Shown here one piece after another: positions 235 to 13,286 of a stretch of 13,362 nt of DNA. Source of the DNA: an uncultured archaeon. Its GTDB lineage: Archaea; Iainarchaeota; Iainarchaeia; Iainarchaeales; CSSED10-239. Numbering within the stretch: the stretch's first letter is position 1; every line of letters begins with the position of its first letter. The notes beneath the pieces were generated by a model. That model was not told where the DNA came from. It saw nothing but the letters and a program-made list of their open reading frames with translations, and did no database searches. The translations under genes and the position numbers were made by a program. The DNA is taken from contig CAYXWT010000012.1 of assembly GCA_964468895.1 (NCBI GenBank), forward strand, positions 3,939-17,300. Reading direction: 5' to 3'.

Positions 235-975
235 ATGAATTTATTACTTTTTCCATTAATTATAATCTGTTTCATTTTTTTAATTTATTATGGTTATAAG
301 GATTTAAAATTTAGAGAGATAAATATATTACCCTTAATATTCTTTAGTTTGTTTTCTATTATTTATCAAGGTTTATTTATATTTAAAGATAATTTATTTC
401 TTTGGAAAATGTATGGTTTACAAATAGCAATTTCATTAATATTTGTTTTAATAATTTATTTTTTAGGAAGAATATCTACTTTTGCTTATATTGGAGAAGG
501 AGATTTGTATATAATTTTAATGATATCATTTAGTTGTGGTTTTGTAGTGTTATTTTCAGAAATTATTTTTTTAATAGCTTTAATTTTAATGTTATTTATA
601 CCTATATATCTATTTATTAAAAATCTAATTTTTAAAAATATACCTAAGTATTCTTTTTTTAAATCTATAATCATAATGTTTTTAGGCACACCTAAAGATA
701 TTACTAAAATTAATAGTTTTTATACACCTTTAGAAACTCTAAAATTAAAAGATAATAAAATAATTAGAAATATAGATATTACTCCTAATTTTGATTCTGA
801 AAAAGAATTAACAAATATTAAAATAATATCTCAATCTAAAAAAATTGGAAAAATATGGGTTTCACCATTGATTCCTTTTATTATACCAATTATTATTTCA
901 TACGTAATTACAATTATTCTTTTTTTAGGGAAATATTTTGTGGATTTTGGAATATTTATGATTCCTTATATATAA
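235..975 (+). CDS. Peptidase A24 family aspartyl prepilin/preflagellin peptidase (FlaK/PibD/EppA-like, no methyltransferase domain)
   Basis: 246-aa polytopic membrane protein. The first catalytic Asp context is 'YGYKD23LKFREI' (codon 301-303). The second is the GxGD motif 'AYIGEGD90LY' (codon 502-504). The Asp-Asp spacing of about 67 residues is typical of archaeal A24 enzymes. A C-terminal 'VSPLIPFIIP' segment resembles the conserved Pro-rich last TM. A polar insert of roughly 80 aa (nt 619-855) lies between TM blocks. Confidence 0.8.
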   Translation: MNLLLFPLIIICFIFLIYYGYKDLKFREINILPLIFFSLFSIIYQGLFIFKDNLFLWKMYGLQIAISLIFVLIIYFLGRISTFAYIGEGDLYIILMISFSCGFVVLFSEIIFLIALILMLFIPIYLFIKNLIFKNIPKYSFFKSIIIMFLGTPKDITKINSFYTPLETLKLKDNKIIRNIDITPNFDSEKELTNIKIISQSKKIGKIWVSPLIPFIIPIIISYVITIILFLGKYFVDFGIFMIPYI

Positions 976-1037
976 AAATACCTTTAAAAATATTATGTAC
1001 TTATTATTATTAAAATATATTTTACTTAATAAATATA

Positions 1038-3644
1038 TTGTTTGATTTTAAGAAGAATATGGTAGAACTTAAAAAAATACTTACAAAAATATCTGAAGAT
1101 AAGTCTAGAAGTGAGACTCTAAATAAAAATAAGTTTACTCTATCTAATAAAGTAGATCCTAAATTTAAAAATAAACTTAAAAAATTAGATATATTTAATG
1201 TAAGTGTAAATAAAAAACTTTTAGGTAACTATAAAATAACTGAAAATATCTCTAAAGTATTGAAACCTATTAATAAAAAAACTATTAAAAATGATGTTGA
1301 ACTAGTTGATAATAAGAACATAAATACACATGTTTTAAAAAAGCAAGATGTTTCAAATTCTAAAAATGTTGATATTAACCAAATTATATTTAATAAGACT
1401 TTAAAGAAGTCTACCGAAATTAAAAAAGATAAAGAAAAACAAGTTTATTTTGAATCTATAAGTTTTTTAGATGCTAAAGATAAAGAATCAGAAGATGTTG
1501 TAGATAAGTTATTAGATAAATTAAATAAAAAAACAAGTGAAATAAATGCTGACAAAAGCTTTATTGAAAGAATCTCATTTTTAGATTATGAACCTAAAAT
1601 TAAAAAAATGCATTTTAAAGATTCAAATATAGAGCATTTATATTCAAGGTTTGATGATATTGAAAAATCTTTAAAAAATAAAAATCAGCCGGTATCTAAA
1701 TCTTCTAAAAATAAACCTAAAGCTTTGTTTGTTGAAGATATAAATATTCCTGAAATTATATCTCTAAAAGATGATGTGAAAAATAAATCTGATTTAACAA
1801 GTAAATTTTCATCAAGAGATATAGATAATTTGAAATCTACAGATAAAGATTCTAATTTTACTAATACTAAAAAAGGCCTTGATTTAAATTCAACTATTAA
1901 AAAAAATATTGAAAGTATAGATCATAAAAAAAGACAGAAAAAAGATATTAAAAAATTAGTGGTAGAATTTAGAAATAAAGATTTAGATAAAAGTGCTTTG
2001 AAAAATATAATGCCAGAATCTAAAAATAATTCTGATTTATCTTTAAGTTTATCTAATAAAAATAATTTAGATAATACTAATTTACCAATAAGAAATTCAG
2101 TTAGTTCTAAAGAATCACAAGACTTTATGTTTCCTAAAGATTCATCATCATATGTTTCTTCAAATAAAATTAATAAAGATATTGTGCAAAATAGTTTATC
2201 TTCAAAAATGTTATCTTCTTCTTATGATATTAATTCCGCAAATGGAGAACAATTTTCAAAATTAATTTATTCTAAGTCTATTGATAGTAGTTTTAATATA
2301 GATAAAGTAAATGATAGATATAATATTGATGATTTTACTTATGTTGACATAAGTGTAAAGATAGATAAATTATTTTATGATATTGTTCAACCAAAGTTGG
2401 AACCAAAACAGAAAGAAGTGTTTAAAGATATAAAAAAATTATTTTTAGATTCAATAGACCAAAATTATTATTCCTTTAGAGGAGATAAACATAGTATTTC
2501 TAGATATATTAAAAAAGTTTATGAAGTTGTTCTTAATAAGTTATCTTATAATCTTAGTAAACTTGACAAAAAACTATATTTATTATATATTGAAAATGAT
2601 TTTTCAGGCCTTGGATTTTTGTCAAGTTTATTAAAAGATAGAAATATAATTGAAGTTAGTTGTAGGGGTGCTAACTTGCCTATAACTGTTTATCATGTTA
2701 AATATGGAGTTATAGATACAAATATTGATTTTGAATCTATTGCAAAATTAAATATATTTGTTTTGTCTTTAACTAAATTAATGGGTTTGCATGTAAATTC
2801 AAATGCACCTATAATTAATGGCTATCTTCCGAATGGATATAAGGTAGAAGGTTTATATTCTGTAGGAGATATTAGTAGTAAAGGTTCATCTTTTGTAATA
2901 AAAAAATATCTTGAAGAACCACTGACACCAATATCTTTAATAAATTTAGGTATAGGTATTGTAGATATATTTGCTTATCTTTGGTGGGCAATAAATAATA
3001 ATTATAATTTAGTTGTTAGTGGTATTGCTGATAAAAGTATGATAATAAACACTTTAGCATTATTATATCCTAATAAGCAAATAATAAGTATACAACCTCA
3101 AGATAATCTAAAGCTTCCACAAAAAAATTGGATTAAAAGAATAGTGTACAATAATTCTCAAGTTAATATTAAAACAATTTTAGATCAAAGTATTTCTGAA
3201 AAACCAGATTATTTAATTGTTGAAAACTTTACAAGTGATTTATTTGATACACAGTGGTATAATATTAATTTATTAGATATTAAAAATAATGTTTTGCCAG
3301 AATATATTAACAAAATAAAATTAATAGGTCAAAAAACAATATTAATTAAATTAGATAGATTAAAAACACAATCTAAAGAACAAATACAAATTAAAGAAAT
3401 ATTTGAATATAATCATAATTCTGAAAAGCAAATATTCAATTTAGAATCTAAATCTGAATTTAAAGTAGATTTATTATCTTCTGAAATTAGTATAGTAGAT
3501 TTAAATAAAAGAAAAGAGATTTTGAATTGGATGATTGATTCTAAAGTTATTAATTATAAAGATTTTAATAGTGTTGTTAATGATTATTATATTGATTCTA
3601 AGAAATTACTTACAAAATTAGGAATTATTGATAACAAAAGTTAA
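1038..3644 (+). CDS. FlaI/GspE-superfamily ATPase paralog with degenerate catalytic motifs (probable pseudo-ATPase) and a long low-complexity N-terminal extension
   Basis: 868 aa. The C-terminal half carries FlaI-type landmarks: 'YDIVQPKLEPKQKE', 'GFLSSLLKDRNIIEVSCRG', 'INGYLPNGYKVEG', 'GSSFVIKKY' and 'LPQKNWI'. The Walker A position reads 'VVSGIADKSMI' (3018-3038) instead of GxxGSGKTT. The Asp box reads 'ISIQPQDNL'. The Walker B region reads 'KPDYLIVENF' (3201-3230). No His box is visible, and no other GxxxxGK[ST] occurs in the protein. Residues 1 to about 430 are Lys/Asn/Ser-rich. The track start is TTG at 1038; an in-frame ATG at 1059 is an equally plausible start. Confidence 0.75.
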   Translation: MFDFKKNMVELKKILTKISEDKSRSETLNKNKFTLSNKVDPKFKNKLKKLDIFNVSVNKKLLGNYKITENISKVLKPINKKTIKNDVELVDNKNINTHVLKKQDVSNSKNVDINQIIFNKTLKKSTEIKKDKEKQVYFESISFLDAKDKESEDVVDKLLDKLNKKTSEINADKSFIERISFLDYEPKIKKMHFKDSNIEHLYSRFDDIEKSLKNKNQPVSKSSKNKPKALFVEDINIPEIISLKDDVKNKSDLTSKFSSRDIDNLKSTDKDSNFTNTKKGLDLNSTIKKNIESIDHKKRQKKDIKKLVVEFRNKDLDKSALKNIMPESKNNSDLSLSLSNKNNLDNTNLPIRNSVSSKESQDFMFPKDSSSYVSSNKINKDIVQNSLSSKMLSSSYDINSANGEQFSKLIYSKSIDSSFNIDKVNDRYNIDDFTYVDISVKIDKLFYDIVQPKLEPKQKEVFKDIKKLFLDSIDQNYYSFRGDKHSISRYIKKVYEVVLNKLSYNLSKLDKKLYLLYIENDFSGLGFLSSLLKDRNIIEVSCRGANLPITVYHVKYGVIDTNIDFESIAKLNIFVLSLTKLMGLHVNSNAPIINGYLPNGYKVEGLYSVGDISSKGSSFVIKKYLEEPLTPISLINLGIGIVDIFAYLWWAINNNYNLVVSGIADKSMIINTLALLYPNKQIISIQPQDNLKLPQKNWIKRIVYNNSQVNIKTILDQSISEKPDYLIVENFTSDLFDTQWYNINLLDIKNNVLPEYINKIKLIGQKTILIKLDRLKTQSKEQIQIKEIFEYNHNSEKQIFNLESKSEFKVDLLSSEISIVDLNKRKEILNWMIDSKVINYKDFNSVVNDYYIDSKKLLTKLGIIDNKS

Positions 3645-3674
3645 ATAAAAAAATATAAAAAAAGGTCAAATAAA

Positions 3675-4517
3675 ATGTTTGGAAAATTTATAACTAAAAT
3701 ATCAATTTTTTTATTTTCAGATATTAATAAGATTATTTCTCCCTATTTTAAAAATTTATCTAAAGTTCTGAATTATGCAAATATTGGTGAAGATCTAAAT
3801 TCTTATCTTTGTAATGCTTTGTTTATATCTTTTATTTTTGCAATTGTTTTAGAATTTTTAATGATATTTGTAATGTTAAAAATAAATATATTTTTTACAA
3901 TATTAAGTTTTTTAATAACTATATTTTTATCATTTACTTTTGCTGCAATAATTTTTTTTGTATTTTATAGATATCCTTTTTATTTAATAAATTCTAAAAA
4001 AACAGAAGTTGAATTTGAAATAAAGAATAGTCTAAAACATCTTTCAGCTCTTAGAGATAAAGATTTAACTGTTAGAGATATTTTGTTATTATTGCAAAAA
4101 CTAGAATTTAATTCAATTTTAACAATAGAATGTAAAAAAGTACTTTCAATGTCTAGTATTAATAAAAATTTAAGAGGTACTTTAGAATTTATTTGTAAAA
4201 ATACCTATTCAGAATTAGAATATGATTTTTTTAAAAAATTAATAGATGTTATTGATAATAAGAAAATACTTTCAGATGTTATCACAGAATTTTTAGAAAA
4301 TGTAGAACAAAGTATTAGATCTCAAAATGAACAAAGAAAAACTAAAATTAATTTGTTATTTCAAGTAAACATATTTTTGTTTTTTTTAATATTTATACTA
4401 GTATTTGGTGTGTTTTTAACATCTATATTTATACCTCAAATACACAGTATTTTATTAATGATTGCAATTATTTTTCCTATAATTGAAATAATATTAATTA
4501 TTGTATTAAATAAATAA
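3675..4517 (+). CDS. Single-domain T2SSF (TadB/TadC/FlaJ-half-like) type IV filament platform membrane protein, module 1 first half
   Basis: 280 aa. N-terminal TM helices are followed by a cytoplasmic helical segment of about 120 aa ('EFEIKNSLKHLSALRDKDLTVRDILLLLQ...LRGTLEFICKNTYSELEYDFFKKLIDVIDN...ITEFLENVEQSIRSQNEQRKTKINLL'). C-terminal TM helices complete the protein. This is the T2SSF fold pattern. It lies immediately (30 nt) downstream of an ATPase-family gene. Confidence 0.7.
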   Translation: MFGKFITKISIFLFSDINKIISPYFKNLSKVLNYANIGEDLNSYLCNALFISFIFAIVLEFLMIFVMLKINIFFTILSFLITIFLSFTFAAIIFFVFYRYPFYLINSKKTEVEFEIKNSLKHLSALRDKDLTVRDILLLLQKLEFNSILTIECKKVLSMSSINKNLRGTLEFICKNTYSELEYDFFKKLIDVIDNKKILSDVITEFLENVEQSIRSQNEQRKTKINLLFQVNIFLFFLIFILVFGVFLTSIFIPQIHSILLMIAIIFPIIEIILIIVLNK

Positions 4518-4527
4518 AGATATATTT

Positions 4528-5700
4528 ATGACTAAAATAGACACAACATCAAAAAATAAAATTAATAAGAAGTTTAAAATATTGTTCTTTAAATATGAGT
4601 ATACAATTTTAGATTTCGCAGGTGTTATCTGTGGTTTATTAATAATAGCAATTGCTAATAGATATTTTGTAGGTAGTAAAATATATTTTTTAGTTTTTGT
4701 TTTTGGATTATTAATTGGTTTATTTGGTTTTTTAATAGAATATTTTATAAAAAATGAAAAACGAAAAACTTTAGAAAAAGAATTGGCTTATTTTTTAAAA
4801 GATTTATCTAGAGATTATAAAAAAACCAAAAATCTATCTTTAGCTCTTGCAAATGTTGCTAAATCTAATTTTTATGGTAGTATTAATAGTGAAATAAAAA
4901 TCATTTCTTTAAGAGTATCTTGGGGTGAAGAATTTGAAGATGCTTTGAAGTCTGCAAATCAAAATATTCAAAGTAATGTTATAATTCATACTTTAAAACT
5001 ATTGTCTGCTATGAAATATTCTAAAATTCCTTATTATAGAGTTCTTGAAAATATATCTAAAGATTTGAATGTATTTAATATTGAAAAAAGCAATAAAAAA
5101 TATTTTTTAAGCTTGTTTAGGTTATCTGTTGTTTTTTATTTTATATTTATTTTTGTAATAATATATATAGATTTTATAATTGGTAAAAACTTTTTATGGT
5201 TTTCTGATAGTACTGAACTTACTAGAATATTTTTTGATAATTTTCTACTTTATATTTCATTATTATTATCTTTTTTTACTGCTTTTGTAATGTACACTAT
5301 TAATAATAAAAAGACTATTATCTTACTTAAATATGTAACCATTTTCTTTTTAATAACTATATTTATGTTTCAAATATTTATACCTAAACCTGATGCTAAT
5401 GAAGCTATTACTGATACTATAAATTATTTAGAAAATACAAATAATTTATATGATCAATCTTATTTACAAGAAAACATTTTTATTTCTAAAATAATTTCTA
5501 CAAAATCATTAAGTTCTGCACAAATTATTAATAATAGTTGTGCTAAAGAATTAAATTTCATTTCATTTCATAATTATAACTGTGGTTCTTCTTGTTATGA
5601 ATCTATAATTGTAATTGAAGAACCAACTTTTTTTGATTTTGAAATTCAGAATCTTGAAGATAATAAATTTATAATTTATTATCAAGAATATATAAACTAA
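4528..5700 (+). CDS. Single-domain T2SSF (TadB/TadC-like) platform protein, module 1 second half, with an extra C-terminal extracytoplasmic Cys-containing domain
   Basis: 390 aa. After the TM region comes a helical cytoplasmic segment ('LEKELAYFLKDLSRDY...WGEEFEDALKSANQNIQSNVIIHTLKLLSAMKY...VLENISKDLNVFNIEKSNKK'), then several TM helices. A polar tail of about 105 aa (nt 5383-5697) contains 'NNSCAKELNFISFHNYNCGSSCYES'. The start is 10 nt after the previous stop. Confidence 0.65.
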   Translation: MTKIDTTSKNKINKKFKILFFKYEYTILDFAGVICGLLIIAIANRYFVGSKIYFLVFVFGLLIGLFGFLIEYFIKNEKRKTLEKELAYFLKDLSRDYKKTKNLSLALANVAKSNFYGSINSEIKIISLRVSWGEEFEDALKSANQNIQSNVIIHTLKLLSAMKYSKIPYYRVLENISKDLNVFNIEKSNKKYFLSLFRLSVVFYFIFIFVIIYIDFIIGKNFLWFSDSTELTRIFFDNFLLYISLLLSFFTAFVMYTINNKKTIILLKYVTIFFLITIFMFQIFIPKPDANEAITDTINYLENTNNLYDQSYLQENIFISKIISTKSLSSAQIINNSCAKELNFISFHNYNCGSSCYESIIVIEEPTFFDFEIQNLEDNKFIIYYQEYIN

Positions 5701-5712
5701 TAATTTGGATTT

Positions 5713-6075
5713 GTGATTGTTTTGCTTAAAAATATAACTAAGAATAAAATTATGTCTAAAAATACAAAATTTGCAGATAATTTTTTTAAACGTGCAAAAG
5801 GATTAATGTTTAGTTCTAGAAATAATTTTAATTATTCTTTAATTTTTGATTTAGAAAGAAATACAGTACTTGGAGCTTCTATTCATATGTTTTTTGTGTT
5901 TTTTCCTATAAATTTAATCTTTGTAGATGAAAATAAAAAAATTGTAGAAATTAAAAGGAACTTAAAACCATTTCAAATTTATAATCCTAAACATTATTGT
6001 AGATATATAATTGAATTTCCTATTGAATTTGATATTAAAAGTACAACTGTTTCTGATTTATTATCTTGGAATTAA
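5713..6075 (+). CDS. DUF192 (COG1430-like) family protein
   Basis: 'FADNFFKRAKGLMF...SIHMFFVFFPINLIFVDENKKIVEIKRNLKPFQIYNP...CRYIIEFP' matches the DUF192 pattern (GLM motif, hydrophobic-MxxxxxPhD/N-hhF-hD, P-[WF] loop, final hhE-h-P). The track start is GTG at 5713; the in-frame ATG at 5752 (MSKNTKF...) is the more likely true start. Confidence 0.65.
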   Translation: MIVLLKNITKNKIMSKNTKFADNFFKRAKGLMFSSRNNFNYSLIFDLERNTVLGASIHMFFVFFPINLIFVDENKKIVEIKRNLKPFQIYNPKHYCRYIIEFPIEFDIKSTTVSDLLSWN

Positions 6076-6107
6076 TTTTAAAATCTACAAAAATATTAAT
6101 CTAAAGC

Positions 6108-6115
6108 TTTATATT
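6108..6115 (+). promoter_or_regulatory. Possible internal TATA-like element (TTTATATT) ahead of module 2
   Basis: It lies in the 66-nt spacer between DUF192 and the Fe-S ATPase gene and starts 34 nt upstream of the ATG at 6142, giving a near-leaderless geometry. It could easily be a chance AT-rich match. Confidence 0.2.
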
Positions 6116-6141
6116 CTAATTAATTTTAATTATCTCTATAT

Positions 6142-7932
6142 ATGTATATAGAAACAAAAATTAAAGATCCAAAAGATTTAATTAAATATCTAAATACAAA
6201 TAAAATTAATCTATTTCTTAATTGTCCTTATAACTTTAAAAATAAAGATGCTCTTAATATCTTTAATTGTAAAGATTGTAAAGACCCTAAATGTTTATTA
6301 GCTTGTAAAAAAGGAGCAATATATTTCTCTTCAAAAGGAATACTTTCAATAGATCAAAATCTTTGTAATGGTTGTGGTGATTGTGTTAGAGCTTGTGAAC
6401 ATAATGCAATTATATTAAGAGATAAGAAAGCATATAAGTGTGATATGTGTGCTAATAATTCTTTTTTAATGCCATGTTATTATAATAATAAAGATATTCT
6501 TAATTTTGTATCTTCAGGAAAATTTATAAATGAAATTTATGAGAAATATTTAGGATATATTATAGATTCTGATTTTAAAGTTTTAAAAAATATTAGTAAA
6601 GATTATAAAATTTTAGAAGATACTAACAAAGATTTAAGGTATGTCATTGATCACCCTAATCTTTCTATTCAAGAAATACAAATTATAAATAATATTTTAG
6701 ATCAATATAAATTTAAAGAAATTAATTTTAAAGAAACAAATGATATTTCTAGTACTGTAAAAAAAGATTTAGAAAAAGAACTTGTAAACTACTGTTATAG
6801 TAATTCTATAGAATTAGATCCAGATCAATTTACTTATATTTTAAATTTAACTTATTTAAATTTATATAAATTTGGACCAATTACTAGTTTATTAGAAGAT
6901 AATGATCTTGAAGAAGTAACAATAATCGATATTAATAAACCATTATATGTTTTTCATAGAACTTTTGGATGGTTAAAAACAAATATAATTTATATTTCTG
7001 AAAATATTTTAAAAGATTTAGTTAATAAATTATGTTGGGAATCTAATAAATTTATTACATTAAAAAATCCATTATTAGATTCTACCATATCAGGAAATTC
7101 AAGATTAAATGCAGTAATTAGTCCAATTACATCTACTTGTGCAATAACTATTAGAAAATTTAGTGCTAAAGAATTTACAGTTTATGATTTAATTAAATTA
7201 AAAACAATTTCACTTGAAGCAATTTCTTTTTTATCATTAGTATTTTTAACAGATTCTAATGTTTTTGTAGTTGGTAATACTGGTTCAGGAAAAACAACAA
7301 CTCTAAATGCATTCTTAAAATTAATACCTATTAACGAACGGATTATAACTGTTGAAGAAGTAAGAGAAATAAGAATTCCTCATAAACATAAAGTTAACTT
7401 ACTTGTAAATAAAGATTTAGATATAAATTTAGAAAAGCTTGTTATTAATACTCTTAGAATGAGGCCAGATAGAGTTGTTATTGGAGAAATTAGAAATAAA
7501 GATGAATGTTTTGCATTAGTAGATTCTTTACTTTGTGGTCAAGCTAAAGGCACTTATACTACTTTTCATTCTCAAAGTAGTAGAGATGCAATTCAAAGAT
7601 TAATATCTTATGGAGTTTTAGAAAATGATCTTGGAGCAGTAGATTTAATAGTAAATCAAAGAAGATATAATAAATATAAAAATAATTGTTTTAGAGAATA
7701 TAGAACTGTATTTGAAATTTGTGAAGTTTTATTTGAAAATAATAAAGTTAAACTGAATATACTTTATGAATTTGATGTTTCTAAAAATAAATTAATATCT
7801 AAGAATAATTCTATTAAAATCTTTGAAAAACTAAAAATAACTTATGGGATTAATACTTATAAAGAACTTAATAAGTTATTAAAATCTAAATCTAAAGATA
7901 TATCTAAAAGATTAGAAGAATATTTTAATTAA
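6142..7932 (+). CDS. FlaI/TadA-like type IV filament assembly ATPase with canonical motifs, fused to an N-terminal multi-cysteine ferredoxin-like (4Fe-4S type) domain
   Basis: 596 aa. The N-terminus holds 12 Cys in residues 28-112, including CKDCKDPKCLLAC and the textbook CNGCGDCVRACEHNAI, plus CDMC-x8-C. The ATPase part carries 'YVIDHPNLSIQEIQ', 'GPITSLLEDNDLEEVTI', 'AITIRKF', Walker A 'VVGNTGSGKTTTLNA' (GNTGSGKTT = 7273-7299), Asp box 'RIITVEEVREI', Walker B 'LRMRPDRVVIGEIRNKDE' (7465-7494) and His box 'GTYTTFHS'. Confidence 0.85.
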   Translation: MYIETKIKDPKDLIKYLNTNKINLFLNCPYNFKNKDALNIFNCKDCKDPKCLLACKKGAIYFSSKGILSIDQNLCNGCGDCVRACEHNAIILRDKKAYKCDMCANNSFLMPCYYNNKDILNFVSSGKFINEIYEKYLGYIIDSDFKVLKNISKDYKILEDTNKDLRYVIDHPNLSIQEIQIINNILDQYKFKEINFKETNDISSTVKKDLEKELVNYCYSNSIELDPDQFTYILNLTYLNLYKFGPITSLLEDNDLEEVTIIDINKPLYVFHRTFGWLKTNIIYISENILKDLVNKLCWESNKFITLKNPLLDSTISGNSRLNAVISPITSTCAITIRKFSAKEFTVYDLIKLKTISLEAISFLSLVFLTDSNVFVVGNTGSGKTTTLNAFLKLIPINERIITVEEVREIRIPHKHKVNLLVNKDLDINLEKLVINTLRMRPDRVVIGEIRNKDECFALVDSLLCGQAKGTYTTFHSQSSRDAIQRLISYGVLENDLGAVDLIVNQRRYNKYKNNCFREYRTVFEICEVLFENNKVKLNILYEFDVSKNKLISKNNSIKIFEKLKITYGINTYKELNKLLKSKSKDISKRLEEYFN

Positions 7933-7950
7933 ATAATAATAGTTGTAAAT

Positions 7951-8688
7951 ATGAATTTAAATTTGATTTTTTCTAAGAAAAAAGTAATACTTTATTTAGT
8001 TATATTTTTTAGTTTAGTGTTATTATATGTTTTATTATATTTTGTATTTAACTTAGAAATTAAATTTAGATATTTAATTTACTTTTTTATATTTGTAAGT
8101 GTGTTTTATTTTGCAATATTTTTTTTTATAGACACCTTAAAAAAGCAAAATATTTCTAAAGAAATATCTAGAGAACTACCTTTCTTTTTAAATAATCTTG
8201 GTAATGATTTAGATAAAGGTGTTGATTTTAAAAGAGCATTAGAAAATAGAACTTTAGATAATACTTTATTAAGTAAGAAAATAAAAAAAGCTTTAGAAAA
8301 TACTAATCTTAAGGGTTTTAGTATAAAAGATAGTTTGTTAGAAATAAGTTTTGATAATAGTGAATTAAATGATGTTATTATTCAAATAATAAATATCCTA
8401 GAATTTGGATCTAAAAACAAATCTTATTCTTTAAATATAATATCTGAAAGTCTAGTTAATAAACAAAATCTTAAATTAAAAAACTTTTCTTCTAAGTTAA
8501 ATTTGATTACTTTGATATATATTGTTATTTCTACTATACTTCCTGCGATGATATTGATATTTTTTATAGTTGGAAGTAATTTCTTTGAACTTAGTTTCTC
8601 AAAGTTTAGTATTATTTTTATAATAACTATATTATTCCCTATAATAGATATGTTTTTATTATTTTTTTTAAAAAGTACTATGCCTTAG
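7951..8688 (+). CDS. Single-domain T2SSF (TadB/TadC-like) platform membrane protein, module 2 first half
   Basis: 245 aa. Two N-terminal TM helices are followed by a cytoplasmic helical segment ('ISRELPFFLNNLGNDLDKGVDFKRALEN...KKALENTNLKGFSIKDSLLEIS...VIIQIINILEFGSKN...IISESLVNKQNLKLKNFSSKLNLI'), then C-terminal TM helices. It starts 18 nt after the ATPase stop. Confidence 0.7.
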   Translation: MNLNLIFSKKKVILYLVIFFSLVLLYVLLYFVFNLEIKFRYLIYFFIFVSVFYFAIFFFIDTLKKQNISKEISRELPFFLNNLGNDLDKGVDFKRALENRTLDNTLLSKKIKKALENTNLKGFSIKDSLLEISFDNSELNDVIIQIINILEFGSKNKSYSLNIISESLVNKQNLKLKNFSSKLNLITLIYIVISTILPAMILIFFIVGSNFFELSFSKFSIIFIITILFPIIDMFLLFFLKSTMP

Positions 8689-8721
8689 TTAAAATGTATT
8701 ATTTTAATGATTTGATAAATT

Positions 8722-9537
8722 ATGAATTTAAAAAATAAAAAATTAATCACAATTTATTTTTCGGTAATTGTGATTATAATTTCCTTTGTACTTAATTGGT
8801 CTTTATTTAAGGTGTTTTTAGGTTTAATAATAATTAATTTTTTTTATTATTTAGTATTATATCTTATAGATAAATATAATATTCATCTTCAGAAACAAGA
8901 ATTTGAAAAACAATTAATAAACAATATTTTAAGTATTTGTGCATTGGATAGTGTTAATTTAAAATTAATAATTTATAAATTTGCAAGTTCAAAATCAAAA
9001 TTAATATCTAAGGAATTTTCCTTTATTAAATTTAAATTAAATCAAGGTCATAAAATAGAAGAGTTATTTAAAATTCTTAGAGTTAAATATAATTCTAATA
9101 TTTTAAATAAATTTTTAGATTTATTATTAATATCTAGAACTTTTGGAACAACTTCAAATAAAGATTTTAAATATCTTGTAGAGAACTTCTTAGATTCTAA
9201 AAATATAATTAAGCAAAGAGAATCTTTATTGTTATTACAAAAATATACTATTTTTATGTGCTCAGCTATTGTTTTACCTGCTATTATAAGTGTTGTAATA
9301 GAACTTGTTAAAAGTTTAAATACATCTTTAGACTTTAGTAGTTTTGGTTTTGTTGTATCTAGTAATCTATTTTCTACTGTGTACTATTGTGCTTTAATAT
9401 ATATTTTTGAGTATATTTTAATATCTTCTTTTTATTTAAGTTTTATAGAAAACAATAACTCTAAATTTATTGTGTATTTATTGATATTATTACCAATAAG
9501 TATATTTATATTCTTTATATCTAAGTATATTATATAG
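8722..9537 (+). CDS. Single-domain T2SSF (TadB/TadC-like) platform membrane protein, module 2 second half
   Basis: 271 aa with the same architecture. N-terminal TM helices precede the helical segment 'FEKQLINNILSICAL...EFSFIKFKLNQGHKIEELFKILRVKYNSNILNKFLDLLLISRTFGT...YLVENFLDSKNIIKQRESLLLLQKY', followed by TM helices. The sequence is more diverged, so the call rests largely on architecture and position. Confidence 0.6.
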   Translation: MNLKNKKLITIYFSVIVIIISFVLNWSLFKVFLGLIIINFFYYLVLYLIDKYNIHLQKQEFEKQLINNILSICALDSVNLKLIIYKFASSKSKLISKEFSFIKFKLNQGHKIEELFKILRVKYNSNILNKFLDLLLISRTFGTTSNKDFKYLVENFLDSKNIIKQRESLLLLQKYTIFMCSAIVLPAIISVVIELVKSLNTSLDFSSFGFVVSSNLFSTVYYCALIYIFEYILISSFYLSFIENNNSKFIVYLLILLPISIFIFFISKYII

Positions 9538-9551
9538 GATATAGGTGTAGA

Positions 9552-10175
9552 ATGATGTTTTTTGAAAGTTTGTTTTCTTTTATATTAAGTAATATTAATT
9601 ATTATACAATTTTTATATTAATGATAATAGAAAGTAGTTTTATTCCATTTCCTTCTGAAATTATATTAATACCTGCAGGGGTGTTATGTTCATTAGGAGA
9701 TTTGAATTTATTTTTGTGTGTTTTTTGTGGTGCTTTTGCTTCATTAATAGGTGCTTTAATTAATTATTTTATTGGTAAAAAATTAGGAAGATCTTATATT
9801 TTAAAACATCAAAAATTATTTTTTATAAATAAAAAGCATTTACATAATAGTGAGCATTTTTTTAAAAAATATGGTAACATAACAACTTTTGTAGGCAGAT
9901 TAATTCCTGTAATAAGACAGTATATTTCAATACCAGCAGGTTTTTCAAATATGAATTTATTTAAGTTTTCTATATTTACTTTTTTAGGTGCATTTATTTG
10001 GTCTGGTTTTCTTGTTTTTATAGGTTATTTCTTTGCAGAAAATGCAAATAGTTTATTATCTTTATATAATAATATATTAGTTATAATAATAGCACTATTT
10101 TTAATAGCTATTTTACTTGTAAAAGTTTTTTCAAGGAAATTTAATAAGAATAAATCTAAACAACATATAAAATAA
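9552..10175 (+). CDS. dedA: DedA / VTT (SNARE-associated) family membrane protein
   Basis: 207 aa with both hallmark re-entrant loop motifs: 'MIIESSFIPFPSEIILIPAG' and 'FVGRLIPVIRQYISIPAGF'. The length and TM layout are right for the family. GGTG (9544-9547) lies 4 nt upstream of the ATG as an SD. Confidence 0.85.
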   Translation: MMFFESLFSFILSNINYYTIFILMIIESSFIPFPSEIILIPAGVLCSLGDLNLFLCVFCGAFASLIGALINYFIGKKLGRSYILKHQKLFFINKKHLHNSEHFFKKYGNITTFVGRLIPVIRQYISIPAGFSNMNLFKFSIFTFLGAFIWSGFLVFIGYFFAENANSLLSLYNNILVIIIALFLIAILLVKVFSRKFNKNKSKQHIK

Positions 10176-10221
10176 GTTTATAAATATTTTGTATCTATTA
10201 TCTTGTATAGATTGTTCTATT

Positions 10222-10229
10222 TTTAAATT
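10222..10229 (+). promoter_or_regulatory. Candidate TATA box (TTTAAATT) for the tRNA gene
   Basis: It is centred about 27 nt upstream of tRNA position +1 (10253), the canonical archaeal TATA-to-start distance. It is embedded in a perfect AT-only palindrome (10221-10240) that could instead be a DedA terminator element or chance. Confidence 0.3.
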
Positions 10230-10252
10230 TTAATTTAAAATAATATTATTGT

Positions 10253-10324
10253 GCCCTAGTAGTCTATCGGTTAGGATGCGACCCTGTCGAGGTTGCGGGG
10301 CGGGTCCGACTCCCGCCTAGGGCG
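10253..10324 (+). tRNA. tRNA-Asp (anticodon GUC), 72 nt, no encoded CCA, no intron
   Basis: Hand-folded cloverleaf.
- Acceptor stem: GCCCTAG (10253-10259) pairs with CTAGGGC (10317-10323); discriminator is G10324.
- D arm: stem GTCT/GGAT, loop ATCGGTTA containing GG.
- Anticodon arm: stem CGACC/GGTTG, loop C-T-GTC-G-A (GTC at 10286-10288).
- Variable region: 4 nt.
- T arm: stem GCGGG/CCCGC, loop TCCGACT.
It is a conspicuous GC-rich island in AT-rich DNA. Confidence 0.9.
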
Positions 10325-10350
10325 CTTATTAAAATTATAGTGATGTTCTT

Positions 10351-10782
10351 ATGCACATATCTAAAATTTGTTTAATATTATTAATATTCTTATTCTTTTT
10401 TAATATAAATTTTATATTTAGTGAAAATCCAATTGTAGAACATGGATATGTTTATTATTATTATGATGATTATACTGATGTTGAACAAACAGAAGTTATA
10501 ACTCATACTTATTTAGATAGTACTTTAATATATTTTCAAACATATGATCAATCTAACAATGTTTATAGAAGTAAAACTGTTAAAGCATACCCTGATAGTA
10601 TTTTAAGTACTATTACATATTATGATTATACTGGAAATATAAACAATACTATTTGTGTACCTGATTCTTTTGATTATATTAATTATGATATTGATTATTA
10701 TGAACCATATAATTATGAATATAATGAAGTGTTTTATGATAATTCTAATGAAAATAGAAATTATTGGAATTATTGGAGATAG
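10351..10782 (+). CDS. Small secreted Tyr/Asp/Asn-rich protein of unknown function (possible YD-repeat-like beta-hairpins)
   Basis: 143 aa. The N-terminal signal-peptide-like segment is MHISKICLILLIFLFFFNINFIFS|ENP. I count about 24 Tyr, including 'GYVYYYYDDY', 'TYYDYTGNI' and 'DYINYDIDYYEPYNYEYNEVFYD'. A weak SD-like GTGAT lies upstream. Confidence 0.55.
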   Translation: MHISKICLILLIFLFFFNINFIFSENPIVEHGYVYYYYDDYTDVEQTEVITHTYLDSTLIYFQTYDQSNNVYRSKTVKAYPDSILSTITYYDYTGNINNTICVPDSFDYINYDIDYYEPYNYEYNEVFYDNSNENRNYWNYWR

Positions 10783-10789
10783 TTTTTTT
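10783..10789 (+). terminator. Oligo-T tract immediately after the stop codon (archaeal-style termination signal)
   Basis: Seven consecutive T directly follow the TAG at 10780-10782. A 236-nt non-coding spacer comes next. Confidence 0.3.
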
Positions 10790-10865
10790 AAAATTAAATA
10801 AAATCTTTAGTTTCTCTATTTTAAAGGTGATTTCTTTGTAGTTTCGTAGAGTTTCACAAAAAGTA

Positions 10866-10873
10866 TTTAAATA
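10866..10873 (+). promoter_or_regulatory. Candidate TATA box (TTTAAATA) with an A-rich BRE-like flank for the 701-aa secreted protein gene
   Basis: The context is 'cacaaaaagtaTTTAAATAg'. It would give a 5' UTR of roughly 120 nt. A chance match is quite possible in this composition. Confidence 0.2.
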
Positions 10874-11006
10874 GTCATTTTCATAAGTTTATTGTAAAGT
10901 TTAATAACTTGTTTTTACAATCTTTAAATTTTTACTAAAAAATACAAAAGAATAGTGTAAAAACATAAAATTAAAAAAACAAATAAAAAAAAAGTAATTA
11001 AAAAGC

Positions 11007-11011
11007 GGAGG
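11007..11011 (+). promoter_or_regulatory. Shine-Dalgarno sequence GGAGG
   Basis: A perfect GGAGG lies 7 nt upstream of the ATG at 11019. It is the strongest RBS in the window and stands out in an A-rich leader. Confidence 0.7.
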
Positions 11012-11018
11012 AATTAAA

Positions 11019-13124
11019 ATGAACAAAAATTTAATTAAAACAACTAATGGAATTTTACTTGTTTTTGTTGTTATGGCAAGTGTTCTGTTACTAAGTACTA
11101 CTATTTTTGCTTCTGAAAGTGATGATAGTTTAGAATTTGTAAATTTACAAATTAATGGGAATTCAAATATAAACGAAACAGTATTTAATGAAGATATGGT
11201 TTTAACAACTTCAGTAAATACAAATTTAAATAAAAACGATATTCAATTTATTGGTTATTTTATGATAGCTAATAATAATGGTATTTTGCCACTTTCAACT
11301 TTTGAATTTGTTATAGATAATACTGCTGCAATGAATTCAGATGGTATGAGAACATATTACCTTAAGGCTAATTTTAGTAGTTCTGAACTAAAACCAATAA
11401 TAGCTCAAGTTCAAGAAATACTTAATACAAATTATTCTCCAGAAAACGGAGATCAATTAAAAATAAAATTAGATGCAATTGTAGGTAGTGGTAATTCTCA
11501 GGAATTATTTACAAACAATCCATATCCAGAAATATCATATAATAGTATATATGATGAACCTCAAGTTATACCTGAAACAAATTATTATATTTCAGATCTA
11601 AAACAAATAATTAATGGAACTTCTACTTATAATAATTACAAATATACTTTAAATCACCCAAATAATTATCCTTTTGAATTTACATTTCAATCTAATGTAG
11701 AGTCACAAGATGTTATTTTTAAATTAGTTTTAGATGATGGTGATGATCAAACACTTTTATTTAATCAAAAAGGTGATTATATAAAAACAGCTCAACCAAT
11801 AACTCTTTCAACAGCTAGTGGAATAACAAGTGATCCTATAGCTTATAATTATAAGTATAAATTTAATTTAACTGATGATATTTTTACATCTATTGATGAT
11901 TATAAATTAGTTAGTGGAAATTATGATTTATATTTAACAGTTTCTCAAGTTAAAGCTTCACAAGGTTCAGTTACACAAGGTGTAGAAACAAGTATTCCTA
12001 GAGAAGATATTGTTATAGATTTTGAATATTCAAATAAAATTAATACTCTTCCTGAAATTGTTTCTTACAAAGCTGAAAATTTAACTATAAATGTTTCATC
12101 AGTTGATAATGTGAACGAAATGGATGATGGGTATTATGTTGTAGAATTAGGTATATATGATTCTTTAAATTTAACACTTAGTTACACTGTTGAAGGTTTA
12201 GAAGATGTTGAATTAGCTAATGCTGTATTTTTAAAATATAAAAATGATGCTGCTATATTTTATCCTGTTTTAAGATCTAAACATTGTGATAGTAGTAAAT
12301 GTGCTTATACTTATCAAGTAAGTATATATAAGTCAGTTATAGATGATAAACCTTATAAACTTGAATATAGAGTTTATTCTGCAAATGCTAGAAATCCAAA
12401 TTTAAATTATGCCACTTCAACTAATAAAGTGACTTCAACAAGATCATATAGTTCTGAAGATATAAAAGTTGTATTAAGTAATGAGTCACAAGTTTTGAAA
12501 ATACCTATTGATCATATAATTAGTTTCTATAATGATAATAGTTCAAAACTAGTTCAATATAAAACTTCAATTTCTCAAAAAAATTCTCCAACACCTATAA
12601 TTGGAATAGAACCTGAATTAGAACAAAATGTTGACAGTGATAATATAGTCAGAGATACAGATGATGAAACAAATTCTGAAGGAGAAATGGCTCAAGATTT
12701 TCAAAATAACAAAGTAGCTATAGAAAAAAGTCTTAGTGGTAAGAATGTTTCAAGTGGTATTAGTTACCCTAAAGTAAGTACTAGTACAAATAATATGTAT
12801 GCTCAAAGAGATTATTATTTAGAAAAGTTAAGTCCTATTTTAAAACAAAATGGTGTTAACTACAAATATATTACTTCTATATCTCTAAAAGATACAGGTG
12901 ATGAAGAAACAACAACATATATTTTAGAGGTTAACGAACCAAAAAAGTTTTTAGGAATTTTTAAAATTGGTGAAAGAACATATACTAAAGAAGTATCTAT
13001 TCCTACTAAAGATTTAATAAATTTAGATCTACAGTATAATAGAGCCAAGCCAAAACCTAAAATACTTACTGAAATAAAGAGTGAAGCAGTTAGTCAAACA
13101 GAATCTGATAATAGTAACAATTAA
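11019..13124 (+). CDS. Large secreted or surface protein of unknown function (candidate adhesin or surface-layer component), N-terminal signal sequence, no C-terminal anchor
   Basis: 701 aa. The N-terminus is MNKNLIKTTNG-ILLVFVVMASVLLLSTTIFA|SESDD (11019-11111). The mature part is polar and rich in Asn/Ser/Thr/Tyr, with alternating beta-strand-like patterns and many N-x-S/T sequons. It has only two Cys (HCDSSKC). An acidic linker 'DSDNIVRDTDDETNSEGE' is present. The C-terminal segment 'TTTYILEVNEPKKFLGIFKIGERTYTKEVSI' is faintly reminiscent of PepSY-like motifs (tentative). No terminal TM helix or sorting signal was seen. Confidence 0.75.
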   Translation: MNKNLIKTTNGILLVFVVMASVLLLSTTIFASESDDSLEFVNLQINGNSNINETVFNEDMVLTTSVNTNLNKNDIQFIGYFMIANNNGILPLSTFEFVIDNTAAMNSDGMRTYYLKANFSSSELKPIIAQVQEILNTNYSPENGDQLKIKLDAIVGSGNSQELFTNNPYPEISYNSIYDEPQVIPETNYYISDLKQIINGTSTYNNYKYTLNHPNNYPFEFTFQSNVESQDVIFKLVLDDGDDQTLLFNQKGDYIKTAQPITLSTASGITSDPIAYNYKYKFNLTDDIFTSIDDYKLVSGNYDLYLTVSQVKASQGSVTQGVETSIPREDIVIDFEYSNKINTLPEIVSYKAENLTINVSSVDNVNEMDDGYYVVELGIYDSLNLTLSYTVEGLEDVELANAVFLKYKNDAAIFYPVLRSKHCDSSKCAYTYQVSIYKSVIDDKPYKLEYRVYSANARNPNLNYATSTNKVTSTRSYSSEDIKVVLSNESQVLKIPIDHIISFYNDNSSKLVQYKTSISQKNSPTPIIGIEPELEQNVDSDNIVRDTDDETNSEGEMAQDFQNNKVAIEKSLSGKNVSSGISYPKVSTSTNNMYAQRDYYLEKLSPILKQNGVNYKYITSISLKDTGDEETTTYILEVNEPKKFLGIFKIGERTYTKEVSIPTKDLINLDLQYNRAKPKPKILTEIKSEAVSQTESDNSNN

Positions 13125-13146
13125 GTCTAGTAGTTTAATATCAGAT

Positions 13147-13197
13147 AAGTAAATAAATTATTAATTTTAATAATTTATTTATTTTTTTTATTTTTTT
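13147..13197 (+). terminator. Hairpin plus double oligo-T terminator after the 701-aa gene
   Basis: Perfect inverted repeat: AAATAAATTATTAA (13151-13164) pairs with TTAATAATTTATTT (13167-13180), extendable by a few flanking pairs. It is followed by T8 (13182-13189) and T7 (13191-13197). The stem is entirely A-T, so the T-runs may be the functional signal. Confidence 0.5.
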
Positions 13198-13286
13198 AAA
13201 ATTTAATTTTAAAATGTATTTTTATGTTTTTTAGAAGCATTTAAATAAGGTTTATAGGTATTATAATTATTAATTTATGAGAAATT

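What the first reader, a model, noticed from the sequence alone, without database searches (positions are those of the whole stretch)
6142..7932. Type IV filament ATPase fused to an N-terminal 12-cysteine ferredoxin-like (Fe-S) domain
Residues 28-112 (nt 6223-6477) contain 12 Cys:
- C28
- C43-x2-C46-x4-C51-x3-C55, followed by 'KKGAI'
- C75-x2-C78-x2-C81-x3-C85, within 'CNGCGDCVRACEHNAI', the textbook 4Fe-4S ferredoxin signature
- C100-x2-C103-x8-C112

This spacing resembles CooF/HybA/DmsB-type polyferredoxin modules and supplies enough ligands for two or three [4Fe-4S] clusters.

The domain is joined in one ORF to a fully motif-competent FlaI/TadA-like secretion ATPase with Walker A, Asp box, Walker B and His box all canonical. 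The metal site I know from TFF ATPases is the C-terminal tetracysteine Zn site of bacterial GspE/PilB, not an N-terminal ferredoxin-like domain. I am not aware of a characterised Fe-S-bearing pilus or archaellum ATPase.

A redox-, O2- or iron-sensing input wired directly to the filament motor would be a new regulatory principle for surface filament assembly.
Basis: partly seen in the sequence, partly recalled or inferred. Interest (0 to 1): 0.8.

Follow-up and report, generated by a model that had tools for sequence, protein, structure and literature searches.

The report
Pilus motor ATPase carrying iron-sulfur domain
A gene in a very AT-rich DPANN-type archaeon encodes a pilus-assembly motor ATPase with a built-in ferredoxin module predicted to hold three iron-sulfur clusters; about 120 related proteins share this fusion, but I found no paper describing it and its function is untested.

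Summary
ORF 6142-7932 (+) is intact and encodes 596 aa. The 12 Cys sit at exactly the stated positions. Pfam Fer4, Fer4_6 and Fer4_11 score above their curated cut-offs. The rest of the protein is a motif-complete FlaI/GspE2/CpaF-type ATPase.

The fusion is not an assembly artefact. About 120 homologues down to roughly 30% identity share the architecture. The few that carry organism names are Iainarchaeota/Diapherotrites.

The N-terminal module is a derivative of the four-cluster CooF/HycB/FdnH/DmsB-type ferredoxin. About half of the family keeps all 16 Cys. The window's clade has lost exactly the four Cys that ligate one cluster in the canonical cross-ligation scheme, so three [4Fe-4S] clusters are predicted. 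Whole-cluster losses that respect those ligand sets occur about five times on a rough tree. This is strong indirect evidence that the Cys are real cluster ligands.

The gene is followed by two platform (T2SSF-like) genes. It is the only catalytically competent filament ATPase in the window, because the upstream paralogue has degenerate catalytic motifs.

The function of the Fe-S module is unproven. My best guess is a redox- or O2-responsive regulatory or stability module. The main rival is a purely structural docking role, as in ABCE1. No paper describing the fusion was found. I rate it a new variant of a known kind.

The parts
6142..7932 (+). Whole gene: ferredoxin-module plus type IV filament ATPase fusion, 596 aa
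   Evidence: ORF list and translation; Pfam T2SSE plus Fer4 families; AF2 model with mean pLDDT 90.9
6142..6516 (+). N-terminal polyferredoxin-like domain (aa 1-125), a three-cluster derivative of a four-cluster CooF/FdnH-type module
   Evidence: Domain model pLDDT 91.4. Foldseek against PDB hits WOR5-B, AOR Fe-S subunit, EbdB, FdnH, PsrB, HycB and NarH. Sequence and profile searches of PDB agree
6223..6477 (+). Cys-rich core (aa 28-112). Predicted ligand sets are C100/C103/C112+C28, C43/C46/C51+C85, and C75/C78/C81+C55
   Evidence: Cys positions; conservation and co-loss pattern. The ligand assignment follows the canonical cross-ligation of four-cluster ferredoxins (established knowledge, not measured here)
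6517..6549 (+). Linker helix (aa 126-136) between the ferredoxin module and the ATPase N-domain, followed by the invariant G138
   Evidence: DSSP on the models; invariant columns
6553..7155 (+). ATPase N-terminal domain (approx. aa 138-338)
   Evidence: Aligns to afGspE 2oap and FlaI 4ii7
7174..7929 (+). ATPase C-terminal catalytic domain (approx. aa 345-596)
   Evidence: Pfam T2SSE; PDB matches 2oap, 4ii7 and 8rkd
7273..7296 (+). Walker A, GNTGSGKT (aa 378-385)
   Evidence: invariant in 87 homologues
7342..7359 (+). Asp-box / catalytic Glu region, IITVEE (aa 401-406)
   Evidence: E405 invariant
7462..7488 (+). Walker B region, RPDRVVIGE (aa 441-449)
   Evidence: R441, P442, D443 and E449 invariant
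7561..7569 (+). His box, TFH (aa 474-476)
   Evidence: H476 invariant
7951..8688 (+). Platform protein 1 (T2SSF/TadB-like), starting 18 nt after the ATPase stop
   Evidence: Weak Pfam T2SSF hit; same position in L001, L003, L085, L086 and L087
8722..9537 (+). Probable platform protein 2 (TadC-like polytopic membrane protein)
   Evidence: No Pfam hit here, but it is syntenic with the second T2SSF gene in L001, L003 and L086; the sequence is hydrophobic
5713..6075 (+). DUF192 gene immediately upstream, a conserved neighbour
   Evidence: Pfam DUF192; also adjacent in L085 and in the distant L086
1038..3644 (+). Upstream 868-aa paralogue with degenerate catalytic motifs (probable pseudo-ATPase), followed by two further T2SSF-like genes (3675-4517, 4528-5700)
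   Evidence: BLASTP alignment shows GNTGSGKT aligned to G--IADKS and VEEVRE aligned to IQPQDN; Pfam and NCBIfam
235..975 (+). Archaeal prepilin-peptidase-like gene (peptidase A24, C-terminal type II domain)
   Evidence: Pfam Arc_PepC_II, 2.5e-11

Best explanation
The gene encodes the working motor ATPase of an archaeal type IV pilus-like (Tad/archaeal-T4P type) machine. It acts with the two platform proteins encoded directly downstream.

Its first ~125 residues form a polyferredoxin module derived from the four-cluster CooF/HycB/FdnH family. In this lineage the module binds three [4Fe-4S] clusters, ligated by C100/C103/C112+C28, C43/C46/C51+C85 and C75/C78/C81+C55.

Shown here:
- the domain identities and the reality of the fusion;
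- conservation of the ligand Cys;
- cluster-wise co-loss of ligands across the family;
- catalytic competence at the level of motifs;
- the operon context.

Inferred: a hexamer would carry 18 clusters, on what I expect from other T4F ATPase structures to be its N-terminal, membrane-facing side. These clusters would make the motor's assembly, conformation or partner binding depend on the oxidation state or integrity of the clusters. Filament assembly in this presumably anaerobic, ferredoxin-based DPANN cell would then be permitted when the clusters are intact or reduced, and shut down when O2 or oxidants damage them or when Fe-S supply fails.

Sub-confidences: real Fe-S binding about 0.85; filament motor ATPase about 0.85; redox/O2-responsive regulatory role about 0.4. 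The overall confidence given (0.45) is for the whole statement including the inferred regulatory role.
For: - Fer4, Fer4_6 and Fer4_11 score above their cut-offs, and T2SSE scores 1.7e-34.
- All 12 Cys are invariant or nearly invariant (at least 90%) in 87-97 homologues spanning 33-82% identity.
- The family splits into a 16-Cys form (46 sequences) and the window's 12-Cys form (46 sequences). The 12-Cys form lacks exactly I-1, I-2, I-3 and IV-4, which are the four ligands of one cluster in the canonical scheme.
- On an NJ tree the same four-Cys set is also lost separately in P0133 and P0072. The set II-1, II-2, II-3 plus III-4 is lost in P0025/P0041 and separately in P0160. A random choice of 4 of 16 Cys matches one of the four canonical sets with probability 4/1820.
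- The AF2 domain model has pLDDT 91.4. It matches solved four-cluster ferredoxin subunits, with the core at rmsd 1.1-1.5 A and 31-41% identity. Sequence and profile hits to PsrB, FdnH, EbdB, NarH and the AOR Fe-S subunit align the Cys with ligand Cys.
- The ATPase part matches afGspE at 6e-42, and also FlaI and CpaF. Its catalytic motifs are intact.
- Two T2SSF-like genes follow the ATPase in every locus examined.
- The only other T2SSE-like gene in the window has degenerate Walker A and Glu motifs.
- No oxidoreductase partner gene lies nearby.
- Loss of the middle cluster in two lineages, and of the whole module in AR10, fits an accessory, modulatory role better than an obligatory electron wire.
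Against: - No experiment exists. Cluster binding, redox potential and any effect on ATPase activity are all untested.
- A chain of three or four clusters is the hallmark of electron-transfer subunits. Known Fe-S sensors usually need one cluster.
- The module has been lost or eroded repeatedly (P0099, P0196, P0173, P0188), so the motor can work without it.
- The Fer4_11 score is only marginally above its cut-off (27.1 against 26.2).
- The anaerobic lifestyle of the host is assumed, not shown.
- No pilin gene was identified in the window.
Confidence: 0.45

Rival explanations
1. The Fe-S module is structural or a docking piece, as in ABCE1. The clusters are real but serve only to fold a rigid N-terminal domain. 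That domain contacts the platform proteins, the pseudo-ATPase paralogue or the membrane, with no redox signalling.
For: - From my own knowledge, ABCE1 is a precedent: an NTPase with an N-terminal 2x[4Fe-4S] domain used mechanically. It appears only as a weak Foldseek hit here (7o80_Bz, E = 0.15).
- Loss of the middle cluster [II] in P0160 and in P0025/P0041 breaks any wire while the domain is kept.
- No redox partner gene lies in the neighbourhood.
- The module takes the place of the first ~48 residues of afGspE (query aa ~159 aligns from chain residue 49).
Against: Fe-S clusters are a costly way to build a scaffold in a reduced genome. Any solvent-accessible [4Fe-4S] domain is in practice oxidant-sensitive, so this reading and the sensor reading overlap. 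Unfused relatives function without the module.
Confidence: 0.3
2. The module is an electron-transfer conduit. It moves electrons between the cytoplasmic ferredoxin pool and a partner at the base of the machine, for example to a conductive filament or a membrane acceptor, or in an ATP-coupled low-potential electron transfer.
For: The closest relatives of the module are all electron-wire subunits: PsrB, FdnH, NarH, HycB, MvhB and the AOR Fe-S subunit. Three or four clusters are retained in most of the family.
Against: No donor or acceptor oxidoreductase, cytochrome or quinone-site protein is encoded in any of the loci inspected. Two lineages have lost the middle cluster, which would interrupt the chain. 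The terminal cluster [I] was lost three times. Some relatives lack the module entirely.
Confidence: 0.1
3. The Cys-rich region binds Zn or is a vestigial, non-functional remnant of a ferredoxin, with no clusters assembled in vivo.
For: The module is eroding in several lineages (P0196, P0173, P0188). The Pfam Fer4_11 score is marginal.
Against: The 12 Cys are under strong purifying selection across 33-82% identity. Losses remove complete canonical ligand sets rather than random Cys. The spacing and fold are those of [4Fe-4S] ferredoxins, not Zn ribbons.
Confidence: 0.05
4. The fusion is an assembly or gene-calling artefact that joins a ferredoxin gene to an ATPase gene.
For: None found.
Against: The reading frame is continuous. 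About 120 homologues from JGI, ENA, NCBI and Logan assemblies, on contigs up to 1.19 Mb, have the same single ORF. AF2 models the protein as one chain with pLDDT 90.9.
Confidence: 0.01

Closest known systems
Archaeal secretion/filament ATPases: Archaeoglobus fulgidus GspE2 (PDB 2oap), FlaI (PDB 4ii7/4ihq) and bacterial TadA/CpaF (PDB 8rkd)
   Same: The N-domain plus RecA-like C-terminal domain has the same fold (Foldseek E about 1e-33, TM 0.6-0.75). Walker A, Asp box, Walker B and His box are present. The gene is genomically coupled to T2SSF-type platform genes and a prepilin peptidase.
   Different: None of these carries an N-terminal Fe-S domain. The window protein scores 182 bits against the NCBIfam FlaI equivalog, whose cut-off is 550. 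No archaellum genes (FlaH, FlaJ, archaellins) were detected by the Pfam scan of the window ORFs, so it is not an archaellum motor.
Four-cluster ferredoxin subunits of the CooF/HycB/DmsB/FdnH/PsrB/NarH type (Pfam Fer4_11)
   Same: The four-group Cys pattern is complete in the 16-Cys orthologues. The KCDLC motif at group IV is present. The fold matches, and the [II]/[III] subdomain superposes at about 1.1-1.5 A.
   Different: Here the module is fused to a motor ATPase rather than partnered with a molybdo- or tungstopterin enzyme or a hydrogenase. The window's lineage has lost cluster [I]: only the fourth Cys of group I and the first three Cys of group IV remain. No catalytic or membrane redox partner lies in the locus.
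ABCE1/Rli1 (an ABC ATPase with an N-terminal 2x[4Fe-4S] domain)
   Same: Conceptually the closest precedent: a bacterial-type ferredoxin domain at the N-terminus of a mechanochemical NTPase (my own knowledge).
   Different: The ATPase superfamily is different (ABC versus the FtsK-HerA/secretion-ATPase superfamily). ABCE1 has two clusters and 8 Cys, not three or four. The structural match is insignificant (E = 0.15). There is no evidence of common descent.
Metal and sensor add-ons already known on type IV filament ATPases: the C-terminal tetracysteine Zn site of GspE/PilB, and the N-terminal MshEN c-di-GMP-binding domain
   Same: An accessory Cys/metal site, or an N-terminal input domain, on the same motor family (my own knowledge).
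   Different: The window's C-terminal-domain Cys (456, 465, 516, 527) are not arranged as CxxC pairs, and in the sequences inspected C465 is often Ala (LLAGQ). No MshEN or GSPII_E_N hit was found. The add-on here is a multi-cluster Fe-S module.

Membership tests
Type II/IV secretion-type (type IV filament) ATPases, FlaI/GspE2/TadA-CpaF branch | Pfam T2SSE domain above the gathering score | tested here: met
   119.6 bits against a cut-off of 24.9
Type II/IV secretion-type (type IV filament) ATPases, FlaI/GspE2/TadA-CpaF branch | Walker A, Asp box with catalytic Glu, Walker B and His box | tested here: met
   GNTGSGKT at 378, IITVEE at 401, RPDRVVIGE at 441 and TFH at 474; all invariant in 87 homologues
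Type II/IV secretion-type (type IV filament) ATPases, FlaI/GspE2/TadA-CpaF branch | Two-domain (N-domain plus C-terminal domain) fold of solved members | tested here: met
   Foldseek hits 2oap, 4ii7 and 8rkd at E 1e-30 to 1e-34 with TMt 0.7-0.76
Type II/IV secretion-type (type IV filament) ATPases, FlaI/GspE2/TadA-CpaF branch | Genomic association with polytopic platform protein(s) and a prepilin peptidase | tested here: met
   T2SSF-like genes at 7951-8688 (and the syntenic 8722-9537) and Arc_PepC_II at 235-975; the ATPase plus two T2SSF genes are conserved in L001, L003, L086 and L087
Type II/IV secretion-type (type IV filament) ATPases, FlaI/GspE2/TadA-CpaF branch | Hexameric ATP hydrolysis that drives filament assembly | not testable with these tools
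   Needs biochemistry or genetics
Archaellum motor FlaI (NCBIfam NF058587 equivalog) | Score above the equivalog cut-off, with archaellum operon context | tested here: not met
   182.3 bits against a cut-off of 550; the Pfam scan of the window ORFs detects no FlaH, FlaJ or archaellin gene
Four-cluster ferredoxins (CooF/HycB/DmsB/FdnH type; Pfam Fer4_11) | Fer4_11 profile above the gathering score | tested here: met
   27.1 bits against 26.2, which is marginal; Fer4 and Fer4_6 also exceed their cut-offs; the profile of the family against PDB gives E 1e-15 to 1e-17 for 9mqx_E, 2ivf_B, 2vpw_B and 1kqf_B
Four-cluster ferredoxins (CooF/HycB/DmsB/FdnH type; Pfam Fer4_11) | Four Cys groups (16 Cys) ligating four clusters | tested here: not met
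   The window protein has the pattern '...C CCCC CCCC CCC.', that is 12 Cys, so three clusters are predicted. 46 of 97 homologues have all 16 Cys. The window protein is therefore a derived three-cluster form of this module.
Four-cluster ferredoxins (CooF/HycB/DmsB/FdnH type; Pfam Fer4_11) | Fold of solved members | tested here: met
   Foldseek probability 1.00 for 6x1o_B, 9mqx, 2ivf_B, 1kqf_B, 2vpw_B, 7qv7 and NarH; core rmsd 1.1-1.5 A over 64 residues
Four-cluster ferredoxins (CooF/HycB/DmsB/FdnH type; Pfam Fer4_11) | Cys side chains converge into cubane-compatible geometry, and [4Fe-4S] clusters are actually bound | not testable with these tools
   Model coordinates are not exposed, so the geometry was not measured. 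The only indirect support is the cluster-wise co-loss of canonical ligand sets. Spectroscopy is needed.
Four-cluster ferredoxins (CooF/HycB/DmsB/FdnH type; Pfam Fer4_11) | Acts as the electron-transfer subunit of an oxidoreductase complex encoded alongside it | tested here: not met
   No molybdopterin, hydrogenase, CODH or membrane-anchor gene lies in the window or in five related loci
GspE/PilB-type C-terminal tetracysteine Zn site | Two CxxC pairs in the C-terminal domain | tested here: not met
   The C-terminal-domain Cys are at 456, 465, 516 and 527, with no CxxC pair
ABCE1-type Fe-S NTPase | ABC-type twin nucleotide-binding domains preceded by an 8-Cys diferredoxin domain | tested here: not met
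   The ATPase is T2SSE-type, not ABC: ABC_tran scores 20.6 bits, below its cut-off of 25. The structural match to ABCE1 is insignificant (E = 0.15).

The most novel reading that the evidence does not exclude
The three- or four-cluster chain is a working electron wire on the motor. Either the hexamer couples ATP hydrolysis to low-potential electron transfer, as the nitrogenase Fe protein or the benzoyl-CoA reductase activators do. Or it passes electrons from the cell's ferredoxin pool to the base of the filament or the platform, linking a surface filament directly to the redox metabolism of a DPANN symbiont, or to electron exchange with its host.
Probability: 0.07. Interest if true: 0.92.

Novelty: new variant of a known kind. 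Interest (0 to 1): 0.62.

Why it matters
The ATPases that drive type IV filaments (pili, archaella, type II secretion) are well studied, and as far as I know none is known to carry iron-sulfur clusters. Here an apparently old, conserved clade of these ATPases in DPANN archaea has a multi-cluster ferredoxin module built into the motor subunit. In DPANN archaea, surface filaments are thought to mediate attachment to hosts.

If the clusters gate the motor, this would be a direct link between cellular redox or oxygen status and filament assembly. It would add a new kind of input alongside c-di-GMP. If the clusters carry electrons, it would be a new type of machine.

Either way the protein is a tractable target. 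It is a single gene with a confident model, clear ligand predictions, and natural three-, two- and zero-cluster variants for comparison.

Tried and rejected
- **Genome scan for taxonomy.** The genome-contig scan with the full-length alignment used the patterns LRMRPD[RK].. and GNTGSGKT.
- **Cluster names.** The listing of cluster members returned almost no organism names. Taxonomy therefore rests on a few source names: Ca. Iainarchaeum, Diapherotrites, and 'archaeon'.
- **Exact protein look-up.** The exact window protein is not in the contig index. I used the 82% identical relative L085 instead.
- **Split-gene test.** I looked for a separate ferredoxin ORF upstream of the unfused AR10 homologue and found none.
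- **Literature.** Searches found no paper on a Fer4-T2SSE fusion. The archaeal type IV pili census (PMC4858521) does not contain the words ferredoxin, Fe-S or DPANN. I also failed to retrieve an open paper stating the canonical cross-ligation of the four Cys groups, so that point rests on my own knowledge of the Fdh-N and NarGHI structures.
- **Rejected readings.** Zn ribbon, archaellum FlaI, assembly artefact, and GspE-type Zn site.
- **Pilin candidates.** The small ORFs downstream in L001 and L086 are not convincing pilins.
Full report
**1. The observation**

The window has about 20% G+C throughout. All of its large ORFs lie on the + strand. ORF 6142-7932 translates without interruption to 596 aa.

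Its Cys residues are at 28, 43, 46, 51, 55, 75, 78, 81, 85, 100, 103 and 112, with seven more scattered later in the protein. Twelve of the 19 Cys fall within 85 residues (hypergeometric P = 7e-7). The other ten ORFs in the window contain only 0.6% Cys.

Pfam finds T2SSE at aa 323-518 (1.7e-34). Over aa 42-105 it finds Fer4_6, Fer4 and Fer4_11, each above its curated cut-off. Walker A, the Asp-box Glu pair, Walker B and the His box are all present.

**2. The fusion is real and recurrent**

A search of 5.8 billion protein clusters returned more than 100 full-length homologues of about 560-630 aa, from 99% down to about 33% identity. Most carry precomputed T2SSE plus Fer4-family domains. They come from JGI, ENA, NCBI and Logan assemblies. 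Some lie on long contigs, including one of 1.19 Mb and one of 719 kb.

Source names, where present, are Candidatus Iainarchaeum, Diapherotrites or 'archaeon'. IMG's automatic names already read 'Flp pilus assembly CpaF family ATPase/ferredoxin'.

A HMMER scan of 1.84 billion 50%-identity representatives used aa 1-330 as the query. It found 124 hits at E < 1e-10. Roughly 25-30 of the listed representatives match from the ferredoxin region through the ATPase N-domain. The family is real but modest in size. An assembly artefact is excluded.

**3. What the N-terminal module is**

Sequence and profile searches against PDB put it closest to the four-cluster ferredoxin subunits of oxidoreductases. 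These include an AOR Fe-S subunit (9mqx_E), PsrB/NrfC (2vpw_B), EbdB (2ivf_B), FdnH (1kqf_B), NarH, HycB and the MvhB polyferredoxin. The Cys of the window protein align to ligand Cys in these structures. NCBIfam gives the same picture, with weak DmsB, DsrO and FDH-beta matches.

An AF2 model of aa 1-143 is confident (pLDDT 91.4). Foldseek matches it to the same set of structures at probability 1.00. The central 64 residues superpose at 1.1-1.5 A rmsd with 31-41% identity.

Aligning 97 full-length homologues reveals 16 Cys columns arranged in the classical four groups:
- 46 sequences have all 16 Cys.
- 46 sequences, including the window protein, have the pattern '...C CCCC CCCC CCC.'.
- Two sequences (P0025, P0041) have '...C ...C CCC. 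CCC.'.

In four-cluster ferredoxins, each cluster takes the first three Cys of one group and the fourth Cys of the partner group. Group I pairs with IV, and group II pairs with III. This is established knowledge from the Fdh-N and NarGHI structures; I did not re-derive it here.

On that scheme the window protein has lost exactly the four ligands of cluster [I] and keeps complete sets for the other three clusters. The isolated C28 (followed by Pro) is the surviving fourth Cys of group I. It completes the set with C100, C103 and C112.

**4. Cluster-wise co-loss**

I added the 50%-identity representatives and ordered the sequences on an NJ tree of the ATPase core. The tree is rough, so the number of separate events is approximate.
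- The cluster [I] ligand set is lost in the window's clade (about 55 sequences), and separately in P0133 and P0072.
- The cluster [II] set (II-1, II-2, II-3 plus III-4) is lost in P0025/P0041, and separately in P0160, which still has cluster [I].

Each event removes one complete canonical ligand set. A random choice of 4 of 16 Cys would do that with probability 4/1820. This is the strongest evidence available here that the Cys really ligate cubane clusters in the standard topology.

A few lineages show further erosion (P0196, P0173, P0188). Unfused relatives are interspersed among the fused ones. The AR10 homologue truly lacks the module, and there is no separate ferredoxin ORF upstream of it.

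**5. The ATPase and its context**

Residues from about 139 onward match A. fulgidus GspE2 (6e-42), FlaI and CpaF by sequence. The full-length AF2 model (pLDDT 90.9) matches them by fold.

The protein is not an archaellum FlaI. It scores 182 bits against an equivalog cut-off of 550, and the window has no archaellum genes.

The gene is followed after 18 nt by a T2SSF-like gene, after a further 33 nt by a second polytopic membrane gene, and then by a VTT/DedA gene. The ATPase followed by two T2SSF-like genes is conserved in loci at 35-58% identity. A DUF192 gene lies immediately upstream of the ATPase here, in L085 and in the distant L086.

Upstream in the window lie a prepilin-peptidase-like gene, an 868-aa T2SSE-like paralogue and two more T2SSF-like genes. 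The paralogue's Walker A and catalytic Glu pair are degenerate: GNTGSGKT aligns to G--IADKS, and VEEVRE aligns to IQPQDN. The ferredoxin-ATPase is therefore the only motif-competent filament ATPase in the window.

None of the inspected loci encodes an oxidoreductase, cytochrome or other obvious redox partner.

**6. How it most likely works**

Shown here:
- It is a motor ATPase of the archaeal T4P/Tad type.
- Its N-terminus is a bona fide polyferredoxin fold.
- The ligand Cys are under strong, cluster-wise selection.

Inferred: three [4Fe-4S] clusters per subunit, so 18 per hexamer. They would be placed where N-terminal extensions of these ATPases sit, on the N-domain side of the ring.

My preferred reading (about 0.4) is that cluster integrity or oxidation state gates motor assembly, conformation or partner binding. 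That would tie filament production to anoxia, reducing power or Fe-S supply.

The main rival (about 0.3) is a redox-silent structural or docking domain, as in ABCE1. A true electron-wire function (about 0.1) is suggested by the module's ancestry. It is weakened by the lack of any partner genes and by two lineages that lost the middle cluster.

**7. Comparison with what is known, and novelty**

Both halves belong to well-known families. The combination is what is unusual.

Known add-ons on these ATPases are the C-terminal tetracysteine Zn site of GspE/PilB and the N-terminal MshEN c-di-GMP domain (my own knowledge). The Zn site is absent here, since there are no CxxC pairs in the C-terminal domain. 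Pfam gives no hit to an N-terminal sensor domain.

Nine literature searches found no paper describing a ferredoxin-fused secretion or pilus ATPase. They included the archaeal T4P census, which contains no mention of ferredoxin, Fe-S or DPANN. The fusion is visible in public databases only through automatic annotation.

I rate it a new variant of a known kind, with interest 0.62.

Noticed in passing
window 1038-3644 (+): An 868-aa T2SSE-like paralogue. It has a ~400-aa Lys/Asn/Ser-rich N-terminal extension, a weak PilB3_C match, a degenerate Walker A (G--IADKS) and a lost catalytic Glu pair (IQPQDN). It is probably a pseudo-ATPase. It is conserved upstream in L085 (904 aa) and is followed by its own pair of T2SSF-like genes (3675-4517, 4528-5700).
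   Followed up: partly
window 5713-6075 (+); L085 6716-7078; L086 9105-9467: A 120-aa DUF192 (COG1430) gene lies next to the ferredoxin-ATPase gene here, in an 82% relative and in a 35% relative. It may be an unrecognised component or partner of the machine.
   Followed up: partly
window 9552-10175 (+); L003 14552-15154; L085 10879-11484: A VTT/DedA-family membrane protein gene directly follows the two platform genes, 14 nt after the second one in the window. It is in the same position in Iainarchaeum loci.
   Followed up: no
window 10253-10325 (+): tRNA-Asp (GTC), found by both ARAGORN and Rfam. It marks the end of the filament gene cluster.
   Followed up: yes
window 1-13362: Extremely low G+C (about 18-26% in 1-kb windows), with almost all genes on one strand. 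This is consistent with a small, reduced DPANN-type genome.
   Followed up: no
window 11019-13124 (+) and 10351-10782 (+): A 701-aa protein and a 143-aa protein, both with N-terminal signal-like hydrophobic segments and no Pfam match. They may be surface or adhesin proteins. No convincing pilin gene was recognised in the window.
   Followed up: no
L087 5986-7323 (archaeon GW2011_AR10 homologue, P0099): A close unfused relative lacks the ferredoxin module altogether, with no separate ferredoxin ORF upstream. Other lineages (P0196, P0173, P0188) carry eroded remnants. The module is therefore dispensable in some lineages.
   Followed up: partly
homologues P0103, P0106, P0107, P0109, P0119, P0146, P0147: In these sequences the first Cys of group II appears missing in the alignment. 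At least some have a CxC spacing instead (for example 'FDCSCQDKKC'). This may be an alternative ligand spacing rather than a loss.
   Followed up: no
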